A DNA stretch of 24,629 nucleotides, from NCBI GenBank assembly GCA_019057635.1, contig DXJL01000034.1:1-24629 (forward strand). Reading direction: 5' to 3'. Made by a program: the position numbers and the translations under genes. The notes under the pieces were generated by a model, which worked only from the letters and a program-made list of their open reading frames with translations, did not search any database and was not told the DNA's origin. This document shows, one piece after another, positions 12,355 through 24,629 of this stretch. Position 1 is the stretch's first letter. Every line of letters begins with the position of its first letter. Source of the stretch: Candidatus Heimdallarchaeota archaeon. GTDB taxonomy: Archaea; Asgardarchaeota; Heimdallarchaeia; Hodarchaeales; Hodarchaeaceae.

Positions 12355-13428
12355 ATGAAAGTTGGCCATAAGACATTTTTCAGTCCGATTCGTGGGAGAA
12401 GACGAATCGAATTTGGATCCACACTTATTCATACTCAACCGCCTGAAAAAATACATTCCTCTCCCAATGATAGTTTCTGCAAGTTAATAAAGGGGGAGAT
12501 TCCATCAATTGTTATTACTAAAGACCTAAGTTTGAATAAAGACCCATTTTCAACCACACCAACCAATGAAAGTCTTCATTCAACCACTGCATTTAGTACC
12601 ATCAATCTTTATCCGCCAATTTCCCGAGTGGTAGAAAAGGAAGCGTCTGAATATCAAAATTCACGTCATCCGCTGGGATTATCTTTGGTTCACATTTTCA
12701 CTCAACATTATTCATTTCCTGAAGAAGTTTCAGTAGAAGAATGGGATATTTTTTTGCAAAACTATCATTTAACCATGAAATCCTGTATTAGCCATCCTAC
12801 CATACGTCGATTGGAAAATGTCACGATTCATACATTTTTTAATATTGGTCTTCGTGCAGGAGCAAGTATTCCCCACTTACATGGACAGTCGTTGATATTC
12901 AATCCTTCAGGATCGGGAAGTAAGAATGCATCCTATACACTCGCATCCCAAGGTCACAATAATTGTTTAAAGTGCCAATATTGGGAAAAAGGTGAAATAA
13001 ATTTCTTTTCAGAGTCAATTTCAATTAAAAACAGGATTATAGCAAGTAACAAATACTGGATGGCCTTTTTAGCCTATGCCCCCGAAAAAGATTCGCATAT
13101 AAGATTATTACCCCGCCAACATGTGTCAGCTTTCTGGTTACTTGACAAAAAAGAACTATCTACACTGGCACCAATCATTATTCAAAGTAACAAAATGCTC
13201 TCAAATTTTATTAAGCGTGAAGGAAAGAACTATCACCTTGTGAAAGACCGGAATATCATTGTACGTCAGACTCCACCTACACCTGATAATAATTTCCATA
13301 TGTTTATAGATATCCTACCAGTTCAGCAGTTAGGGGGAGCAGAAATCCTTGATAATCAAAAATTCTCAAGTGAGCTTCCTGAAACTATTGCCTCCAAAAT
13401 GCTCTCTCTCACATTAAAGGATTGTTGA
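12355..13428 (+). CDS. GalT-like (HIT superfamily) sugar-1-phosphate nucleotidyltransferase; true N-terminus probably upstream
   Basis: NIGLRAGASIPHLHGQ (HxHxQ), CLKC, YAP..DSHIRLLP, FHMFIDILP, GGAE, PETIA. Confidence 0.8.
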   Translation: MKVGHKTFFSPIRGRRRIEFGSTLIHTQPPEKIHSSPNDSFCKLIKGEIPSIVITKDLSLNKDPFSTTPTNESLHSTTAFSTINLYPPISRVVEKEASEYQNSRHPLGLSLVHIFTQHYSFPEEVSVEEWDIFLQNYHLTMKSCISHPTIRRLENVTIHTFFNIGLRAGASIPHLHGQSLIFNPSGSGSKNASYTLASQGHNNCLKCQYWEKGEINFFSESISIKNRIIASNKYWMAFLAYAPEKDSHIRLLPRQHVSAFWLLDKKELSTLAPIIIQSNKMLSNFIKREGKNYHLVKDRNIIVRQTPPTPDNNFHMFIDILPVQQLGGAEILDNQKFSSELPETIASKMLSLTLKDC

Positions 13429-13571
13429 AATTAGTTGTATTTTTTCGCATTTTTCTAGGGACTTTTCCTTCAAAATTCTTATTGATTTATTGAGTTTTTT
13501 GACCTGTATCCTTCATAGGGGTCTTTAAGAAGGATGATGCTATACTGTCTTTTATAATCAACAAAGACTAA

Positions 13572-13898
13572 ATGTCTATAAATTGGGTGAAAAAGATGGT
13601 TGAACTTAACGAAGATCAAGTAAAGATCCTTACCTCCCTGAAAAAAAAGTCTGCCTATATTTCTGACGCTGATAACGGCTTCAAAGGCCTTCCCTACAAA
13701 GAAATCATGAAAACAACAGATTTAACTGTTGAAAAAACGCTTCTTTCGCTCGGAGCTTTAGAAGCTCAACAGCTCGTTAAACACACCTGTGCAATCCAAA
13801 GACAAATCGTTGATTATTTAGGACATTCTACAGTTGAAATTGCCGGCCAAAAGGTAATTCGAATGTTTTCATTAACCTCCAAAGGTTTAAAAGCTTAA
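13572..13898 (+). CDS. Small winged-helix protein, paralog 1
   Basis: LNEDQVKIL...YKEI...LTVEKTLLSLGALEAQQLV...FSLTSKG, a MarR/ArsR-like wHTH pattern. Start may be ATG 13596. Confidence 0.65.
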   Translation: MSINWVKKMVELNEDQVKILTSLKKKSAYISDADNGFKGLPYKEIMKTTDLTVEKTLLSLGALEAQQLVKHTCAIQRQIVDYLGHSTVEIAGQKVIRMFSLTSKGLKA

Positions 13899-14095
13899 TA
13901 GCTTTATCACCGTTCTGAAAGACTTACCCAAAGAGGACAGCTAGGAATAATTGGGAAAAATTATTCGTAACAATCCTTGGAGCTGTTCTTCCTGATTCAG
14001 CGACGCGAGCCAGCATTAATGCAGGTCTTACCGCCTCTCCACAGGCGTTTAACGTCTCCGTAGAACTCTCGGCAATAGGAAATACACATGACGAT
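13890..14095 (-). ncRNA. Predicted TnpB omega-RNA (scaffold ~14080-13910 plus flank-derived guide 13909-~13890)
   Basis: Stems on the minus strand: CCGAGA-GT-TCTACGG, CGTT-A-AACG, CCTG/CAGG, GCATT/AATGC, ACAGCT/AGCTGT and GAATAATT/AATTATTC. GTTCT in the 5' hairpin is complementary to AGAAC at the 3' end (pseudoknot-like). Confidence 0.7.
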
Positions 14096-14119
14096 CCTGA
14101 TTGATTAGTAGCTTTTCTT

Positions 14120-14133
14120 CTTATAAACCTACT
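14120..14133 (-). promoter_or_regulatory. Putative TATA-box promoter retained in the mini-element
   Basis: TAGTAGGTTTATAAG is identical in both elements (14120-14134 minus and 24236-24250 plus). It lies ~40 bp upstream of the omega-RNA scaffold here and ~35 bp upstream of tnpB in the other copy. Confidence 0.55.
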
Positions 14134-14320
14134 AAGTCCTGGAATCTAAAACAAATTTGCTTGTTTCCCGTTATTCTAATATCAAGAAGTTACCTAGCGT
14201 GTCATTTTGGTATAATCCCATGAAATCGGTTGAACACTCTGTTAATCATGTATTGTAATCTCTACACCCTTCTCCTAAGATATCCTGCTTCCTATTTCTC
14301 TTCTTTCCTCAATGTTATCT

Positions 14321-14360
14321 TGTCATATTTGTCTATAAATGTCCATAGCTGTCAAGCTAT
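14321..14360 (-). repeat. Left-end ~10-bp direct repeats (...GACA) of the mini-element
   Basis: Minus strand TAGCTTGACA GCTATGGACA TTTATAGACA AATATGACA. Confidence 0.7.
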
Positions 14361-14647
14361 CCGACAACAGGATTGACCCCTTCTGAAAACCTCTTTACAC
14401 CATTTTTACTGGGGCAATTTTATTCTTTAGTACTACAAACGGCTATAATTTGTTGTATAATCTAGAATTGGTGTTTTCTCAATTCCTTGCAATACTCTGG
14501 CCGTATTAGCAGATCTAGCTTAATTCTAAGTTAAAGTGGAAAGCTTGGTAATAAGTAATGTTCACCCATTTCGAGAATACATACGAAGCAGAGTTAAACA
14601 TAGGTTAATTCGCGTTATTCAACCCGTAATGAAAAAGGCGTTAACAA

Positions 14648-14995
14648 ATGGTAGAAATTAAGGAACTAAATCAAGATCAAATAAAAGTCATCCTTACATT
14701 AGGAGATCCTTCTGAATTTTTTAGAGGGTTTCACACTACTGCGGGAGTCCGTGGTGTTCCCTATAAAAAAATTAAGGAAAAGAGTGGCTTAACATTAGAA
14801 AAAGTTCTCCTATCCTTAGGTTGGTTAGAAGCAACAAGTTATATCGATCACGATGTTGCGATTGTTAGAAAAACCTTGGATTATCTTGGGCAGACCAATA
14901 TCGAGGTTGCTGGACAATCAGTTTTAAGAATGTTCTACTTAACTGAGAAAGGAAAAAAAATGTTGTCATCTCTTGAAAAAGCTGGGAGAGAATGA
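14648..14995 (+). CDS. Small winged-helix protein, paralog 2, likely co-transcribed with gap
   Basis: ELNQDQIKVI...GVPYKKI...LTLEKVLLSLGWLEA...DYLG...EVAGQ.VLRMFYLTEKG. The stop is 3 bp before the gap ATG. Confidence 0.7.
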   Translation: MVEIKELNQDQIKVILTLGDPSEFFRGFHTTAGVRGVPYKKIKEKSGLTLEKVLLSLGWLEATSYIDHDVAIVRKTLDYLGQTNIEVAGQSVLRMFYLTEKGKKMLSSLEKAGRE

Positions 14996-14998
14996 TAG

Positions 14999-16096
14999 AT
15001 GGCTAAATCCAAGGTAAAAATAGGTGTTGTTGGATACGGAGTGATAGGAAAACGAGTAGCAGATGCAGTAGCAGCCCAATCTGATATGAAACTCGTTGGG
15101 GTAGCTGATATCATTTCTGATGTTCGACTACGCATCGCAGTAGAAAGGAAATACCCTATCTACTGTAGTGTGGCTGATTTTGAACCCAAAATGCGTGAAG
15201 CGGGATATGAGATCGTTGGATATCTAGATGATATGGTCAAACAATGTGATTTGGTCATTGATTGTACTCCTTCAGGTGTTCCCCAGCAGAATTTTCCTCT
15301 TTATAAAGCTGAAAATGTAAGAAGTATCGTTCAAGGAGGAGAAAAACACGGTTTAGTCAATCGCAGCTTCAGTACTTTCGGAAATTATTATTCCCATCTT
15401 GGTGTTGATAAAACACGTGTTGTTTCCTGCAATACAACTGCTTTAACTCGTATTATATCTACATTAGCCCATACATATGGTGTTTCAGACGCATTTGTTG
15501 CACTTGCACGGAGAGCAGGTGATCCAGCACGTACGAACAGAGGGCCAATTAATGCTATTACACCTGTTTTGGGCGTTTCACATCATGGACCAGATTTAGT
15601 TACAGTAATGCCCCGTTTTCAGGATAAAATCCATTCTCTAGCTATCGCAGGTTCATGGACTCTTTCTCACGTTCATATGCTGAGAGTAACTCTTGAGAGT
15701 AGTCCTAGCAAAGACGATGTCGTAGCATTGTTTAAACGAACACCACGTATCTTGATTGAACCAGGAAAACAAGGATTATTTGACTCAGCTCAACTGGTCG
15801 AATATTTCCGTGATTTAGGGAGACCTAGATACGATCGTCCTGAAGTATTCATCTGGCAAGAAACTTTGAGTACAGATGCAAACAACAATCTGTATTTAAT
15901 CTATGACGTCCATATGGAATCCATTCCGATTCCAGAGAACGTAGACGCTATTCGGGCAATGCTAGAGATGGAGTCAAGCGCTATTAAATCAGTTGAGAAA
16001 ACTGATAAAGCCTTAAACATTGATCAAAAAGGAGCTTATTCCCAATCACTTTACGGAGAGACTGAACCTCAAGTATCTCAAGATACTAAGGAATAA
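14999..16096 (+). CDS. gap: Archaeal type II phosphorylating glyceraldehyde-3-phosphate dehydrogenase
   Basis: GYGVIGKRVADAV, DCTP, QGGEK, RVVSCNTT (catalytic Cys), SHHGPD, IPENVDAIRAM. Confidence 0.93.
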   Translation: MAKSKVKIGVVGYGVIGKRVADAVAAQSDMKLVGVADIISDVRLRIAVERKYPIYCSVADFEPKMREAGYEIVGYLDDMVKQCDLVIDCTPSGVPQQNFPLYKAENVRSIVQGGEKHGLVNRSFSTFGNYYSHLGVDKTRVVSCNTTALTRIISTLAHTYGVSDAFVALARRAGDPARTNRGPINAITPVLGVSHHGPDLVTVMPRFQDKIHSLAIAGSWTLSHVHMLRVTLESSPSKDDVVALFKRTPRILIEPGKQGLFDSAQLVEYFRDLGRPRYDRPEVFIWQETLSTDANNNLYLIYDVHMESIPIPENVDAIRAMLEMESSAIKSVEKTDKALNIDQKGAYSQSLYGETEPQVSQDTKE

Positions 16097-23867: not shown

Positions 23868-23999
23868 ATCATTTTCGAAAAATTTGTGTTCATTCCAATC
23901 AAGAATTCTGTTATAGGGTCTGGGATTGGTCTTTACGTTTCACGTATGATCATCAAAGCTCATGGTGGAAGTTTAACTGCTGAGAGCAAGGGTTGTTAA
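23868..23999 (+). pseudogene. Remnant of a histidine kinase HATPase_c domain truncated at the IS junction
   Basis: Manual translation IIFEKFVFIPIKNSVIGSGIGLYVSRMIIKAHGGSLTAESKG(C*) shows the F box, G2 box and HGG motif. No start codon; in-frame stop at 23865; the terminal GxxF strand is missing. Confidence 0.8.
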
Positions 24000-24010
24000 C
24001 TATCTATTGA

Positions 24011-24040
24011 AATATAGACAAATATAGACATTTATGGACA
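24011..24040 (+). repeat. Left-end 10-bp tandem direct repeats
   Basis: AATATAGACA AATATAGACA TTTATGGACA. Confidence 0.8.
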
Positions 24041-24285
24041 AATAGGAAAAACAGCTTCAAGAGGAAGAGAGAAACAGAAAGCAGAATAACAAAGGAAAAA
24101 GAAGTAGAGATTAATCCACAGGATTAACAGAGCAATAAACCGATCTCATGGGATTATAATTCTAGTGACAAACTATTTAACCTCTTAAGAATAGAATAGC
24201 GGAAAATAAGCAACTTTGATTTAGATCACGTGGCCTAGTAGGTTTATAAGGAGAAAAGTGCGTAATCAATCAGTATTGCTATGTT

Positions 24286-24629
24286 ATGATAGCGGGTACT
24301 AGTAAGGATGGTCAGGGGTTGCTCCGTATACGAGGGTATAAGTACGAATTACGCGTAAATAACAAGGAACGGACGCTACTGGGTAAATGTACTGGTATAT
24401 CGCGATTTACTTGGAACTGGGGATTAGCCAATCGAAAAGAACGTTATCAAACGCAAACAGGTGATGCTCGTTATACCAATGCAATGAAACAACATAAAGA
24501 ATTAAATCACATGAAACTAACAGATTTTCCTTGGATGTATGAGGTTTCGAAATGCGTCCCGCAAGAGGCACTCCGTGACTTAGATCGTGCCTATCAGAAT
24601 TTCTTCATCAATCAACAAAAAAGAAAAAA
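24286..24629 (+). CDS. tnpB: TnpB RNA-guided endonuclease, N-terminal part (partial)
   Basis: Not in the ORF track. MIAGTSKDGQGLLRIRGYKYELRVNNKERTLLGKCTGISRFTWNWGLA...FPWMYEVSKCVPQEALRDLDRAYQNFF matches the TnpB N-terminal HTH/REC pattern. Alternative start TTG 24319. Confidence 0.9.
   Translation, partial: MIAGTSKDGQGLLRIRGYKYELRVNNKERTLLGKCTGISRFTWNWGLANRKERYQTQTGDARYTNAMKQHKELNHMKLTDFPWMYEVSKCVPQEALRDLDRAYQNFFINQQKRK

What the first reader, a model, noticed from the sequence alone, without database searches (positions are those of the whole stretch)
13890..14377. Protein-free mini-element that looks like a stand-alone omega-RNA (guide RNA) gene for TnpB acting in trans
Seen: this apparent intergenic gap is, on the minus strand, a ~280 bp left-end region homologous to the tnpB element at 23993+. 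It is joined directly to the last codons of a tnpB (IAESSTETLNACGE...) and a hairpin-rich tract ending CAGAACGG. Nearly all of tnpB is deleted, yet the TATA box and the scaffold stems and pseudoknot complement (GTTCT/AGAAC) are kept, which places the promoter ~40 bp from the scaffold. Established: TnpB omega-RNAs overlap the tnpB 3' end and right end, and take their guide from flanking DNA. Inference: this is a ~200-nt guide RNA cassette with guide 5'-UGAUAAAGCUAUUAAGC..., loading TnpB made elsewhere. A family of such elements would form a dispersed guide repertoire in an Asgard-like genome.
Basis: partly seen in the sequence, partly recalled or inferred. Interest (0 to 1): 0.85.

Follow-up and report, generated by a model that had tools for sequence, protein, structure and literature searches.

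The report
TnpB-less guide-RNA mini-transposon in Asgard archaeon
This gap holds one copy of a small protein-free mobile element that kept only the promoter and the guide-RNA part of a TnpB transposon, a kind of element already described elsewhere but here multiplied, and apparently arisen three separate times, in an Asgard archaeon.

Summary
Window 13910-14380 (minus strand) is a ~468-bp insertion with sharp ends. It consists of a ~290-bp left end, 74-78% identical to the tnpB element at 23993+, fused to the last 51 codons of tnpB and the right end.

It is not a one-off. The genome holds at least 14 copies (~90% identical, unique flanks), and a sister species holds more. Reciprocal empty sites show precise insertion after a G-run (AGGG/GGGG), with GG at both junctions.

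The retained 169 nt match a structured RNA found at the 3' end of distant tnpB genes: 53 of 71 loci hit, and 39 of 47 pairs covary. Within the protein-free copies this scaffold varies half as much as the left end.

Two further mini lineages with different deletion junctions also join TATA box to scaffold. Two intact cognate TnpB genes exist in the genome. There is no Y1 transposase, but two serine-recombinase elements are present.

Expression is not shown; there is only one unstranded metatranscriptome contig. Guides match only their own flanks, so a wider "guide repertoire" is not supported.

The idea that protein-free elements carry omega-RNAs used in trans is already in print (Meers 2023; Haloquadratum PATEs). 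Verdict: a new member of a known kind, with a neat convergent twist.

The parts
13910..14376 (-). Mini-element proper (TCAAT...CAGAACGG, ~467 bp; boundary ambiguous by the shared GG). One copy of family 'mini-1'.
   Evidence: Copy alignment with unique flanks. Loose ends of other copies at 13907-13909 and 14380-14382. Empty orthologous site in G002:C70. Reciprocal empty site.
14377..14380 (-). G-run of the target site (presumed TAM, AGGGG with the preceding A at 14381). Its last GG equals the GG at the right-end junction.
   Evidence: Of 13 left-end junctions in the genome, 12 have a run of three or more G before the element; the other (C176) reads GGTGG. The base before the G-run is A in 12 of 13. 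Empty versus occupied site: AGTGAGGG|CTTAAT versus AGTGAGGG|TCAAT...CAGAACGG|CTTAAT.
14091..14376 (-). Left end: the untranslated leader of the parent tnpB element, with GACA-type repeats near the terminus.
   Evidence: 74-78% identical to 24017-24284. 69-78% identical to the left ends of the full-length elements C104, C139, C152 and C58.
14121..14127 (-). TATA-like box TTTATAA, the tnpB promoter of the parent. A start about 14100 is expected (inferred).
   Evidence: Present in the copies aligned, with variants in C12 (GTGTATAA) and C106 (TTTATAC), and in the full element at 24243-24249. The expected start site rests on recalled archaeal promoter spacing.
14085..14089 (-). Deletion junction: the tnpB start codon ATG (14089-14087) joined to the 3' part of tnpB. 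About 1.15 kb of coding sequence is missing.
   Evidence: Alignments of mini and full copies. Full-length elements are about 1.63 kb.
13910..14078 (-). Omega-RNA scaffold, 169 nt with 47 modelled pairs. In this copy 3 pairs are broken.
   Evidence: Covariance model R1 scores it 188.6 bits. Structure counts. Broken pairs 3-25 A.C, 56-67 U.U and 107-157 U.U.
13924..14079 (-). Remnant of the last 51 codons of tnpB plus the stop codon, overlapping the scaffold. No start codon is in frame with it.
13894..13909 (-). Presumed guide (TGATAAAGCTATTAAG): the unique DNA 3' of the right end. It overlaps the stop codon of the convergent ORF 13572-13898.
   Evidence: Flanks diverge at this point in every copy. 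There is no other perfect match in the genome. Its use as a guide is inferred.
23993..24629 (+). Related full-length tnpB element: left end from 23993 after AAGGG, TATA at 24243-24249, tnpB from 24286. It is cut by the contig end after 114 codons.

Best explanation
SHOWN.
- The gap is one copy of a non-autonomous, protein-free mobile element ('mini-1', ~468 bp). It arose from a TnpB-only insertion sequence by deletion of nearly the whole tnpB gene.
- It inserted precisely after a G-run and has multiplied to at least 14 copies in this Asgard (Heimdall/Hodarchaeota-like) genome.
- It keeps the parent's left end with its TATA box.
- It also keeps, 45 nt downstream of the TATA box, the complete 169-nt RNA scaffold that overlaps the 3' end of tnpB in full-length copies.

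INFERRED.
- Transcription from the old tnpB promoter gives an RNA of about 200 nt: a short leader, the scaffold, then the flanking DNA as guide.
- TnpB made by full-length copies elsewhere in the genome binds this RNA and trims its 5' end.
- When the mini-element is excised, the rejoined site (G-run plus guide match) is cut, and repair from a sister copy restores the element.
- The element is therefore a selfish hitch-hiker on both a transposase and a TnpB supplied in trans.
- The GG at both junctions suggests that the transposase is a serine recombinase of IS607 type.
For: (1) Family and mobility.
- blastn and the covariance model find 24 scaffold copies in the genome. 14 are mini-1 with the same junction, 3 are mini-2, 1 is mini-3, 3 are attached to tnpB, 1 is cut by a contig end, and 2 are fragments (junction classes).
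- The window's site is empty in G002: flanks are 92-94% identical, with 6 nt where the window has 474.
- A G002 copy's site is empty in this genome, and flank matches overlap by 2 nt (GG).

(2) The retained part is the omega-RNA.
- It is homologous to the tnpB 3' end plus right end of full copies, at ~85%.
- Model R1 finds the same structure at the 3' end of tnpB in 53 of 71 more distant loci at E<=1, 45 of them at E<=0.01.
- On that alignment 89.4% of cells pair, against 69.1% in shuffles and 32-48% when slid. 39 of 47 pairs change on both sides, and 0 of 500 shuffles reach the observed score.

(3) Constraint without coding.
- Among 10 complete protein-free copies, 18 of 124 scaffold columns vary against 93 of 287 left-end columns (Fisher p=1.6e-4).
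- For scaffold positions 303-400 alone, more than 70 nt from the end, it is 16 of 98 (p=0.003).
- Mini copies have 0-3 broken pairs of 47, similar to full copies of the same genome.

(4) Convergence.
- Mini-2 (C51, C105, C125) and mini-3 (C174; also G005, and a Heimdall MAG locus) come from other subfamilies and have different junctions.
- Both again join TATA box to scaffold, with 22-24 nt between TATA and helix 1, and their deletions end 0-17 nt before helix 1.
- Truncated-scaffold pieces (C30, C194) are single fragments and did not amplify.

(5) Partner.
- Two intact TnpB genes of the family (426 and 435 aa) are homologous over their full length to ISDra2 TnpB structures (E 1e-50).
- Their LDKG, TEDL and DRDQNAA motifs are conserved; the shown alignment, to the best PDB hit, matches the first and third acidic residues and the D of EDL.

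(6) RNA-library evidence. A 156-nt metatranscriptome contig, 1 mismatch, spans 13852-14007, crossing from the scaffold into the unique flank.

(7) Precedent. Omega-RNA supplied in trans works experimentally for an IS607 TnpB (10.1101/2023.11.20.567912, legend passage).
Against: - No strand-specific or 5'-end evidence of a transcript. The single RNA-library contig is unstranded, at depth 2.8, could be DNA carry-over or the 3' end of the convergent ORF 13572-13898, and covers only the 3' 98 nt of the scaffold.
- The window copy is among the more decayed. It has 2 broken pairs in conserved helices, and 9 of 15 mini-1 copies carry a mismatch in the middle of helix 3, where full-length copies pair.
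- Copies differ by 6-11% from each other in a star-like pattern, which points to an old burst rather than current activity.
- No contig in three DNA runs joins across the element.
- The intact TnpB elements of this genome are only ~85% (right end) and 69-78% (left end) identical to mini-1. The direct parent is not in the assembly, and compatibility of protein and RNA is unproven.
- Lower variability of the scaffold could partly reflect DNA sites needed for transposition.
- The covariation alignment was fitted to the model, which favours the structure.
- No transposase with matching ends was identified.
Confidence: 0.6

Rival explanations
1. It is an inert decaying relic. The mini-elements are ordinary MITE/PATE-like deletion products that spread once using a transposase in trans. 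The scaffold is kept only because it lies in the right end, and no RNA from it is used by TnpB.
For: Copies are 6-11% diverged in a star-like pattern. 9 of 15 copies have a mismatch in helix 3, and the window copy has 3 broken pairs. There is no proof of transcription. No empty-site joint appears in the three DNA runs laid. Haloquadratum PATEs are described as degenerate core-deletion products (PMC3119063, passages).
Against: Scaffold columns vary half as often as left-end columns in copies that code for nothing, including the part more than 70 nt from the end. Three independent deletions all preserve TATA box plus the whole scaffold, with endpoints within 0-17 nt of helix 1. Published minimal ends are much shorter: 40 and 60 bp for an IS607 element, and 52-bp PATEs in Haloquadratum. 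Right-end length alone therefore does not explain 169 nt.
Confidence: 0.25
2. It is a regulator or decoy. The mini-element RNAs are made, but they act by soaking up TnpB or by antisense effects on neighbouring genes, rather than by guiding cleavage.
For: Scaffold copies without tnpB outnumber those with tnpB, 18 to 3, in this assembly. The window's guide region is antisense to the 3' end of ORF 13572-13898. TnpB binding of scaffold RNA alters RNA fate in IStrons (passage in 10.1101/2023.11.20.567912).
Against: Nothing in the data points to it specifically. The flanks are unrelated to each other. The architecture matches a guide RNA with its guide in the flank.
Confidence: 0.06
3. It is a host-level dispersed guide repertoire. 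On this reading the many mini-elements give TnpB a set of guides used against other targets, for defence or gene control.
For: There are many copies, each with a different 3' flank. TnpB relatives have been domesticated as RNA-guided regulators (abstract of 10.1101/2023.11.30.569447 in the listing).
Against: For 22 guides (first 16 nt) there is no second perfect match in the genome. 148 other sites have at most 2 mismatches, only 10 of them preceded by GG, which is about chance for this composition. Guides are simply whatever lay beside the insertion site. Copies are not shared at orthologous sites between the two species where this could be tested: 2 of 2 testable sites were empty in the other species.
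Confidence: 0.03

Closest known systems
PATE-like protein-free IS200/IS605 elements that encode omega-RNAs (Geobacillus stearothermophilus; Meers et al. 2023 preprint PMC10055086, passages read)
   Same: These are protein-free elements with the ends of TnpB transposons. [quoted passage not shown] The function proposed there is the same: cleavage of the empty donor joint and retention by recombination.
   Different: Those are bacterial, IS605-type, and mobilised by a Y1 TnpA with subterminal hairpins. Here the host is an Asgard archaeon and no Y1 TnpA is found. No clear subterminal hairpins are present. GG lies at both junctions with a G-run target. The tnpB promoter is fused to the scaffold.
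Haloquadratum walsbyi PATEs derived from IS1341-type (TnpB-only) elements (PMC3119063, passages read)
   Same: These are archaeal, protein-free, multi-copy core-deletion derivatives of TnpB elements with strain-specific insertions. [quoted passage not shown]
   Different: They were described before omega-RNAs were known. They are defined by near-terminal palindromes. Some are only 52 bp and so cannot carry a scaffold. No promoter-scaffold fusion or convergence was reported in the passages read.
IS607-family elements with serine recombinase TnpA and TnpB (Clostridium botulinum IStron; 10.1101/2023.11.20.567912, passages read)
   Same: They have a strict GG core dinucleotide at the target and at both junctions. 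The TAM is G-rich (TGGG there, AGGG/GGGG here). A mini-IS lacking both genes is excised by TnpA in trans. Omega-RNA expressed in trans supports cleavage.
   Different: No tnpA is in or next to these elements, and there is no intron. The two serine-recombinase elements of this genome have ends that blastn does not match to the mini-element. Membership is therefore inferred from the junctions only.
ISDra2 TnpB with its omega-RNA (PDB 8BF8, 8EX9, 8EXA, 8H1J)
   Same: The cognate protein is a full-length homologue: E 1e-50, residues 1-406 against 1-394. The RNA overlaps the 3' end of the gene and the right end.
   Different: The scaffold sequence has no Rfam match. Its helices could not be compared with the solved RNA using these tools.

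Membership tests
TnpB omega-RNA (guide RNA of OMEGA systems) | Encoded over the 3' end of tnpB and the transposon right end in full-length elements | tested here: met
   The mini scaffold aligns to the last ~170 nt of full-length elements, ending at the same CAGAACGG. The remnant frame matches TnpB residues 385-435. Model hits sit at the tnpB 3' ends of distant loci.
TnpB omega-RNA (guide RNA of OMEGA systems) | Conserved secondary structure supported by covariation | tested here: met
   In the close set (A3) 93.9% of cells pair, against 36-47% when slid. In A4, 39 of 47 pairs change on both sides and 0 of 500 shuffles reach the observed score. Caveat: A4 was fitted to the model, and no R-scape test was available.
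TnpB omega-RNA (guide RNA of OMEGA systems) | Guide taken from DNA immediately 3' of the right end, next to a TAM in the empty site | tested here: inconclusive
   Flanks diverge exactly after CAGAACGG. Empty sites place the G-run directly beside the would-be guide. Use of the flank as a guide is not testable here.
TnpB omega-RNA (guide RNA of OMEGA systems) | Transcribed | tested here: inconclusive
   One unstranded 156-nt contig from a metatranscriptome covers 13852-14007 at depth 2.8.
TnpB omega-RNA (guide RNA of OMEGA systems) | Bound by TnpB and directs TAM-dependent DNA cleavage | not testable with these tools
   Needs RIP-seq and interference assays.
TnpB omega-RNA (guide RNA of OMEGA systems) | Pseudoknot between a 5' segment and the 3' end of the scaffold (recalled from the ISDra2 structures) | tested here: inconclusive
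   GUUCU (A3 columns 13-17) could pair with AGAAC (columns 180-184), but also with a second AGAAC (columns 90-94). All are nearly invariant. The U/C change at column 17 is not compensated.
Non-autonomous protein-free derivative of an IS200/IS605/IS607-family element (PATE/MITE-like) | No transposase or TnpB coding capacity | tested here: met
   The longest ORF overlapping the element is 48 aa. Only a 51-codon tnpB tail without an in-frame start remains.
Non-autonomous protein-free derivative of an IS200/IS605/IS607-family element (PATE/MITE-like) | Both ends homologous to those of a protein-coding element | tested here: met
Non-autonomous protein-free derivative of an IS200/IS605/IS607-family element (PATE/MITE-like) | Multiple dispersed copies and presence/absence polymorphism with precise boundaries | tested here: met
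   At least 14 copies. Whole-length copies occur in 2 of the 31 genomes searched. Reciprocal empty sites.
Non-autonomous protein-free derivative of an IS200/IS605/IS607-family element (PATE/MITE-like) | Near-terminal palindromes (the feature that names PATEs) | tested here: inconclusive
   A 6-bp GTCAAT/ATTGAC stem lies at the left terminus, and no hairpin lies in the last 40 nt of the right end. DNA folds are no better than shuffles (z -0.6 to -1.2, +0.4). The element is therefore not filed as a PATE in the strict sense.
IS607 family (serine-recombinase transposition) | GG core dinucleotide in the target and at both junctions | tested here: met
   Empty ...GAGGG|CTTAAT... versus occupied ...GAGGG|TCAAT...CAGAACGG|CTTAAT..., with a 2-nt overlap of flank matches. 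13 of 13 left junctions have GG before the element.
IS607 family (serine-recombinase transposition) | Serine recombinase TnpA encoded by the element, or by a partner with matching ends | tested here: not met
   None lies in or beside these elements. Two Resolvase-domain genes sit next to other tnpB genes (C54, C56), but blastn finds no end similarity. Only short motif resemblances were seen by eye.
IS200/IS605 family (Y1 transposase, single-strand transposition) | Y1 TnpA available in the genome | tested here: not met
   PF01797 gives 0 matches in a genome estimated 91.6% complete. The same search rings in 6 of 14 control genomes. Absence from an incomplete assembly is not proof.

The most novel reading that the evidence does not exclude
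In this Asgard lineage, promoter-plus-omega-RNA mini-elements may be selected hyperparasites of TnpB. On this reading they arose at least three times and outnumber TnpB-coding copies about 6 to 1. They would persist or spread mainly through TnpB-guided cutting and recombination, in a genome where no matching transposase is found. RNA-guided homing would then be a main driver of a protein-free element's success, not just a safeguard.
Probability: 0.1. Interest if true: 0.8.

Novelty: new member of a known kind. Interest (0 to 1): 0.45.

Why it matters
The finding shows in an Asgard archaeon that the guide-RNA module of a TnpB transposon can live on without its protein, and can out-multiply the parent.

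Evolution reached the same minimal design (promoter joined to scaffold) three times. That is comparative evidence that the RNA, not just the DNA ends, is what selection keeps.

It gives a natural test bed of about 18 guide-only loci, 2 intact TnpB genes and defined empty sites. This could be used to ask whether TnpB serves elements in trans, which transposase moves TnpB-only elements in archaea, and how separable guide loci, a step on the road to CRISPR-like arrays, come about.

The G-rich TAM and compact scaffold may also interest genome-editing work.

The general idea is already published for bacteria, so this extends it rather than overturning anything.

Tried and rejected
Rfam. A search of 13700-14600 at E<=10 gave only four chance-level hits (snoRNA, miRNA, a viral pseudoknot, a CRISPR repeat), none on the scaffold. 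No curated family covers it.

Single-sequence fold. The fold of 13890-14110 was only mildly better than shuffles (z -2.1), so comparative data were used instead.

Small ORF. The 30-aa ORF starting at the old tnpB ATG (13997-14089) was rejected as the function. It is in a shifted frame, and mini-2 and mini-3 have no such ATG.

Trans targets. 22 guides were scanned against the whole genome at up to 2 mismatches. The result was chance-level.

Autonomous partner.
- No Y1 TnpA was found.
- The two serine-recombinase elements C54 and C56 have no blastn similarity to the mini-element ends.
- Resemblances of short motifs (ATAGACA-type repeats...CGAACGG end in C56) were seen by eye only and not tested statistically.
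- All left-end matches in relatives lie about 1.6 kb from a right end, which means they are TnpB-only.

Reads.
- No contig in DNA runs X1, X2 or X4 joins across the element. One 61-nt skip (13951-14013) occurs in a single low-depth contig.
- RNA run X17 has no cover over 13500-13851 or 14072-14800.
- These absences are not evidence.

Subterminal hairpins in single-stranded DNA were not significant.

Supplementary files of the papers were not opened. The PATE tables of PMC3119063 and the extended data of Meers et al. may list closer precedents that I could not see.

Papers.
- PMC10055086, 10.1101/2023.11.20.567912, PMC3119063, PMC12558985 and PMC13343696 were read as passages found by term search only.
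- All others were seen only as search listings or abstracts.
- I searched for Asgard plus TnpB plus MITE/insertion sequence, and for non-autonomous/trans-acting guide terms. I saw no report of such elements in Asgard archaea. Those two searches do not prove that none exists.

Items recalled, not from a call: the ISDra2 catalytic residue names, archaeal TATA-to-start spacing, TnpB 5' processing of its own transcript, and typical omega-RNA lengths.
Full report
WHAT IS THERE

On the minus strand the window reads as follows:
- unique DNA;
- a G-run (14380-14377);
- TCAATCC... at the start of a left end;
- a TATA-like TTTATAA (14127-14121);
- the ATG of a former tnpB (14089-14087);
- joined to this at about 14085, the last 51 codons of tnpB;
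- a tract ending CAGAACGG at 13910;
- unique DNA again (TGATAAAGCTATT...).

The left part pairs with the left end of the tnpB element at 23993+ of the same window, at 76% over 119 nt and 78% over 91 nt. The alignment and blastn extend this to about 270 nt at 74%. The right part translates to PIAESSTETLNACGEAVRPAL...VLFG*. This is 39/51 identical to residues 385-435 of an intact 435-aa TnpB of the same genome.

IT IS A FAMILY

The window is a whole contig (C210) of a 3.19-Mb, 214-contig assembly with 36% G+C.

blastn of the region against the genome finds seven further complete copies at 89-92% identity: C150, C111, C153, C137, C82 and C75 twice. It also finds six copies cut by contig ends that contain the same deletion junction: C12, C65, C88, C176, C192 and C207. 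In the alignment, similarity begins at the G-run and stops after CAGAACGG, and all flanks are unrelated.

A covariance model of the right part finds 24 copies in the genome. By junction sequence these are:
- 14 of 'mini-1';
- 3 of 'mini-2' (C51, C105, C125);
- 1 of 'mini-3' (C174);
- 3 attached to a tnpB gene (C104 and C139 intact; C152 with only a 173-aa open frame);
- 1 cut by a contig end (C138);
- 2 fragments (C30, C194).

Two more full-length left ends run off contigs (C58 and the window's own 23993+).

In 31 related genomes, whole-length mini-1 copies occur in this genome and one other species of the genus (G002). Ten of the 31 have some match, mostly to the right end only.

The closest TnpB loci in named records are from Heimdallarchaeota and Hodarchaeota MAGs at 77-89% protein identity. 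The 'Asgard-like' guess is therefore supported.

IT INSERTED PRECISELY

In G002 the orthologous locus is 94% and 92% identical on the two sides. It has 6 nt where the window has 474.

Conversely, a G002 copy sits in a site that is uninterrupted in this genome:
- empty: ...AGTGAGGG|CTTAAT...
- occupied: ...AGTGAGGG|TCAAT...CAGAACGG|CTTAAT...

The flank matches overlap by two bases. The element therefore adds about 468 bp, and GG stands at both junctions.

Of 13 left junctions in the genome, 12 have a run of three or more G directly before the element; the other (C176) has GGTGG. In 12 of 13 the base before the G-run is A.

A nested case in a Heimdall MAG locus (L042) shows a full-length element inserted after GTGGGG inside a mini-3 copy.

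A strict GG core at the target and at both junctions, with a G-rich TAM (TGGG), is what was reported for an IS607-family element moved by a serine recombinase (passages of 10.1101/2023.11.20.567912).

This genome has no Y1 transposase domain: 0 hits, completeness 91.6%. It has two Resolvase-domain genes, each next to a different tnpB (C54, C56). Their ends do not match the mini-element by blastn. Single-stranded DNA folds of the element's ends show no significant subterminal hairpins.

I therefore infer, but have not shown, serine-recombinase (IS607-type) mobilisation in trans. The partner is unidentified.

THE RETAINED RIGHT PART IS THE GUIDE-RNA SCAFFOLD

Thirty-two right ends were aligned: mini-1, mini-2, full-length copies, and close relatives. 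They support a structure of 47 pairs: helices 1-3 in the tnpB tail, a long-range helix 4/5 closing just before CAGAACGG, and a variable hairpin. 93.9% of cells pair, against 36-47% when partners are slid.

A model built on this (R1) was searched against 71 further loci: 69 encoding TnpBs only 43-54% identical in their best aligned segment, plus the two serine-recombinase loci. It hit 53 of them at E<=1 (45 at E<=0.01), always at the 3' end of tnpB. It did not hit the two serine-recombinase loci.

On that alignment 89.4% of cells pair (shuffles 69.1%, slid 32-48%). 39 of 47 pairs change on both sides, and no shuffle of 500 reaches the observed score. The alignment was fitted to the model, which favours it, but the margin is large.

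Rfam has no family for it.

The protein partner is a full-length homologue of ISDra2 TnpB (E 1e-50). Its LDKG, TEDL and DRDQNAA motifs are conserved; that these are the catalytic residues is recalled.

IS THE SCAFFOLD STILL UNDER SELECTION IN THE PROTEIN-FREE COPIES?

In full-length elements the scaffold is also coding, so conservation there proves little. In the 10 complete mini-1 copies nothing is coded, yet:
- 18 of 124 scaffold columns vary, against 93 of 287 left-end columns (Fisher p=1.6e-4);
- scaffold positions 303-400, which lie more than 70 nt from the end, give 16 of 98 (p=0.003);
- the variable hairpin varies most, 20 of 45.

Mini-1 copies have 0-3 broken pairs of 47.

Against this, the window copy has 3 broken pairs, 2 of them in conserved helices. 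Nine of 15 mini-1 copies share a mismatch in the middle of helix 3, which pairs in the full-length copies of this genome and most close relatives (1 of 15 other rows mismatched) and covaries in distant ones. Copies differ by 6-11% in a star-like pattern, so the burst is not recent.

CONVERGENCE

Mini-2 and mini-3 derive from other subfamilies. Their left ends are 71-82% identical to mini-1, or only partly alignable, and their hairpins are shorter or longer. Their junction sequences also differ.

Each nonetheless keeps the whole left end with its TATA box and the whole scaffold:
- TATA to helix 1 is 45 nt in mini-1, 24 nt in mini-2 and 22 nt in mini-3;
- the deletions end 0-17 nt before helix 1.

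With the usual archaeal spacing (recalled), mini-2 and mini-3 would start transcription at the scaffold's first helix.

Pieces with truncated scaffolds exist only as single fragments (C30, C194). Published minimal ends for mobility are far shorter: 40 and 60 bp for an IS607 element, and 52-bp PATEs in Haloquadratum. I take this as the best evidence that the RNA module is what persists.

EXPRESSION

One search found 23 runs holding part of the region, one of them a metatranscriptome.

In that run a 156-nt contig with one mismatch covers 13852-14007. It runs from mid-scaffold across the right-end boundary into this copy's unique flank. It is unstranded and at depth 2.8. It may be DNA carry-over or the 3' end of the convergent ORF 13572-13898. 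It is a hint, no more.

GUIDES

Each copy's would-be guide is simply its 3' flank. For 22 guides there is no second perfect 16-mer in the genome. 148 sites have at most 2 mismatches, 10 of them after GG, which is about chance. The natural target of each RNA is its own empty site. A broader 'repertoire' role has no support.

COMPARISON WITH WHAT IS KNOWN

Protein-free derivatives of TnpB-only elements were described in Haloquadratum in 2011. [quoted passage not shown] Omega-RNA in trans works for an IS607 TnpB (legend passage).

The finding is therefore a new member of a known kind. Four things are new here:
- the host (Asgard archaea);
- the GG/G-run junctions without an identified transposase;
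- the promoter-scaffold fusion reached three times;
- the 18:3 excess of guide-only over TnpB-linked scaffolds.

I saw no report of such elements in Asgard archaea in two literature searches. That does not prove there is none, and supplements were closed.

VERDICT

It is near certain that this is a mobile, protein-free deletion derivative carrying an intact-looking omega-RNA module. I put the probability that the RNA is made and used by TnpB in trans at about 0.6.

Noticed in passing
L042:937-3048 (named Heimdallarchaeota MAG record): A nested insertion. A full-length tnpB element sits inside a mini-3 element, right after GTGGGG and just upstream of mini-3's TATA box, so its would-be guide is mini-3's promoter region. 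Its tblastn match runs to 1478 nt, against about 1272 nt in sister loci.
   Followed up: partly
G000:C54:4500-9000 (L125) and G000:C56:26000-30700 (L126): Two IS607-type units, each a serine recombinase gene followed by tnpB on the same strand. The C56 unit shows GGG|TAGACC..., ATAGACAGATAGAACA-type repeats upstream, and ...CTCGAACGG downstream of tnpB. By eye this resembles the mini-element's GACA repeats and CAGAACGG end, so it may be the mobilising partner.
   Followed up: partly
window 14300-14376 (minus); L014:200-209 and 592-601: The left end carries three to four GACA-containing repeats about 10 bp apart (GACAGNTATGGACATTTATAGACAAATA). In the C111 copy, a perfect 10-nt inverted repeat CAAATAGGAC/GTCCTATTTG links the left end to a site 20-29 nt from the right end. 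These are possible recombinase sites. The repeat is degenerate in the window copy.
   Followed up: partly
window 14103-14135 (minus): In mini-1 copies an inverted repeat TTAGTAG...CTACTAA brackets the TATA box (I2). It is not kept in the full-length element at 24233-24265.
   Followed up: no
window 14025-14059: A second contig of the metatranscriptome run (227 nt) matches only these 35 nt, the most conserved scaffold/TnpB-tail motif, and then runs on unlike. A related element of another organism is therefore present in that RNA library.
   Followed up: no
G000:C75:1-186 and G000:C198:1-343: Two contig ends carry the same sequence (both match the flanks of the G002 copy). This is an assembly redundancy or a strain variant in this MAG.
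   Followed up: no
window 13572-13898 (+) and 14648-14995 (+): The two ORFs flanking the element (108 and 115 aa) have no Pfam match. The element lies 11 nt past the stop codon of the first, so the presumed guide is antisense to that gene's 3' end.
   Followed up: partly
window 14999-16096 (+) and 12355-13428 (+): Neighbouring genes look ordinary: a GAPDH-like dehydrogenase (Gp_dh_C, 6e-14) and a protein with a weak HIT-domain match.
   Followed up: no
G000:C30:9015-9185 and G000:C194:2602-2744: These are solitary right-end fragments with 5'-truncated scaffolds and unrelated upstream DNA. They are remnants of disrupted copies.
   Followed up: partly
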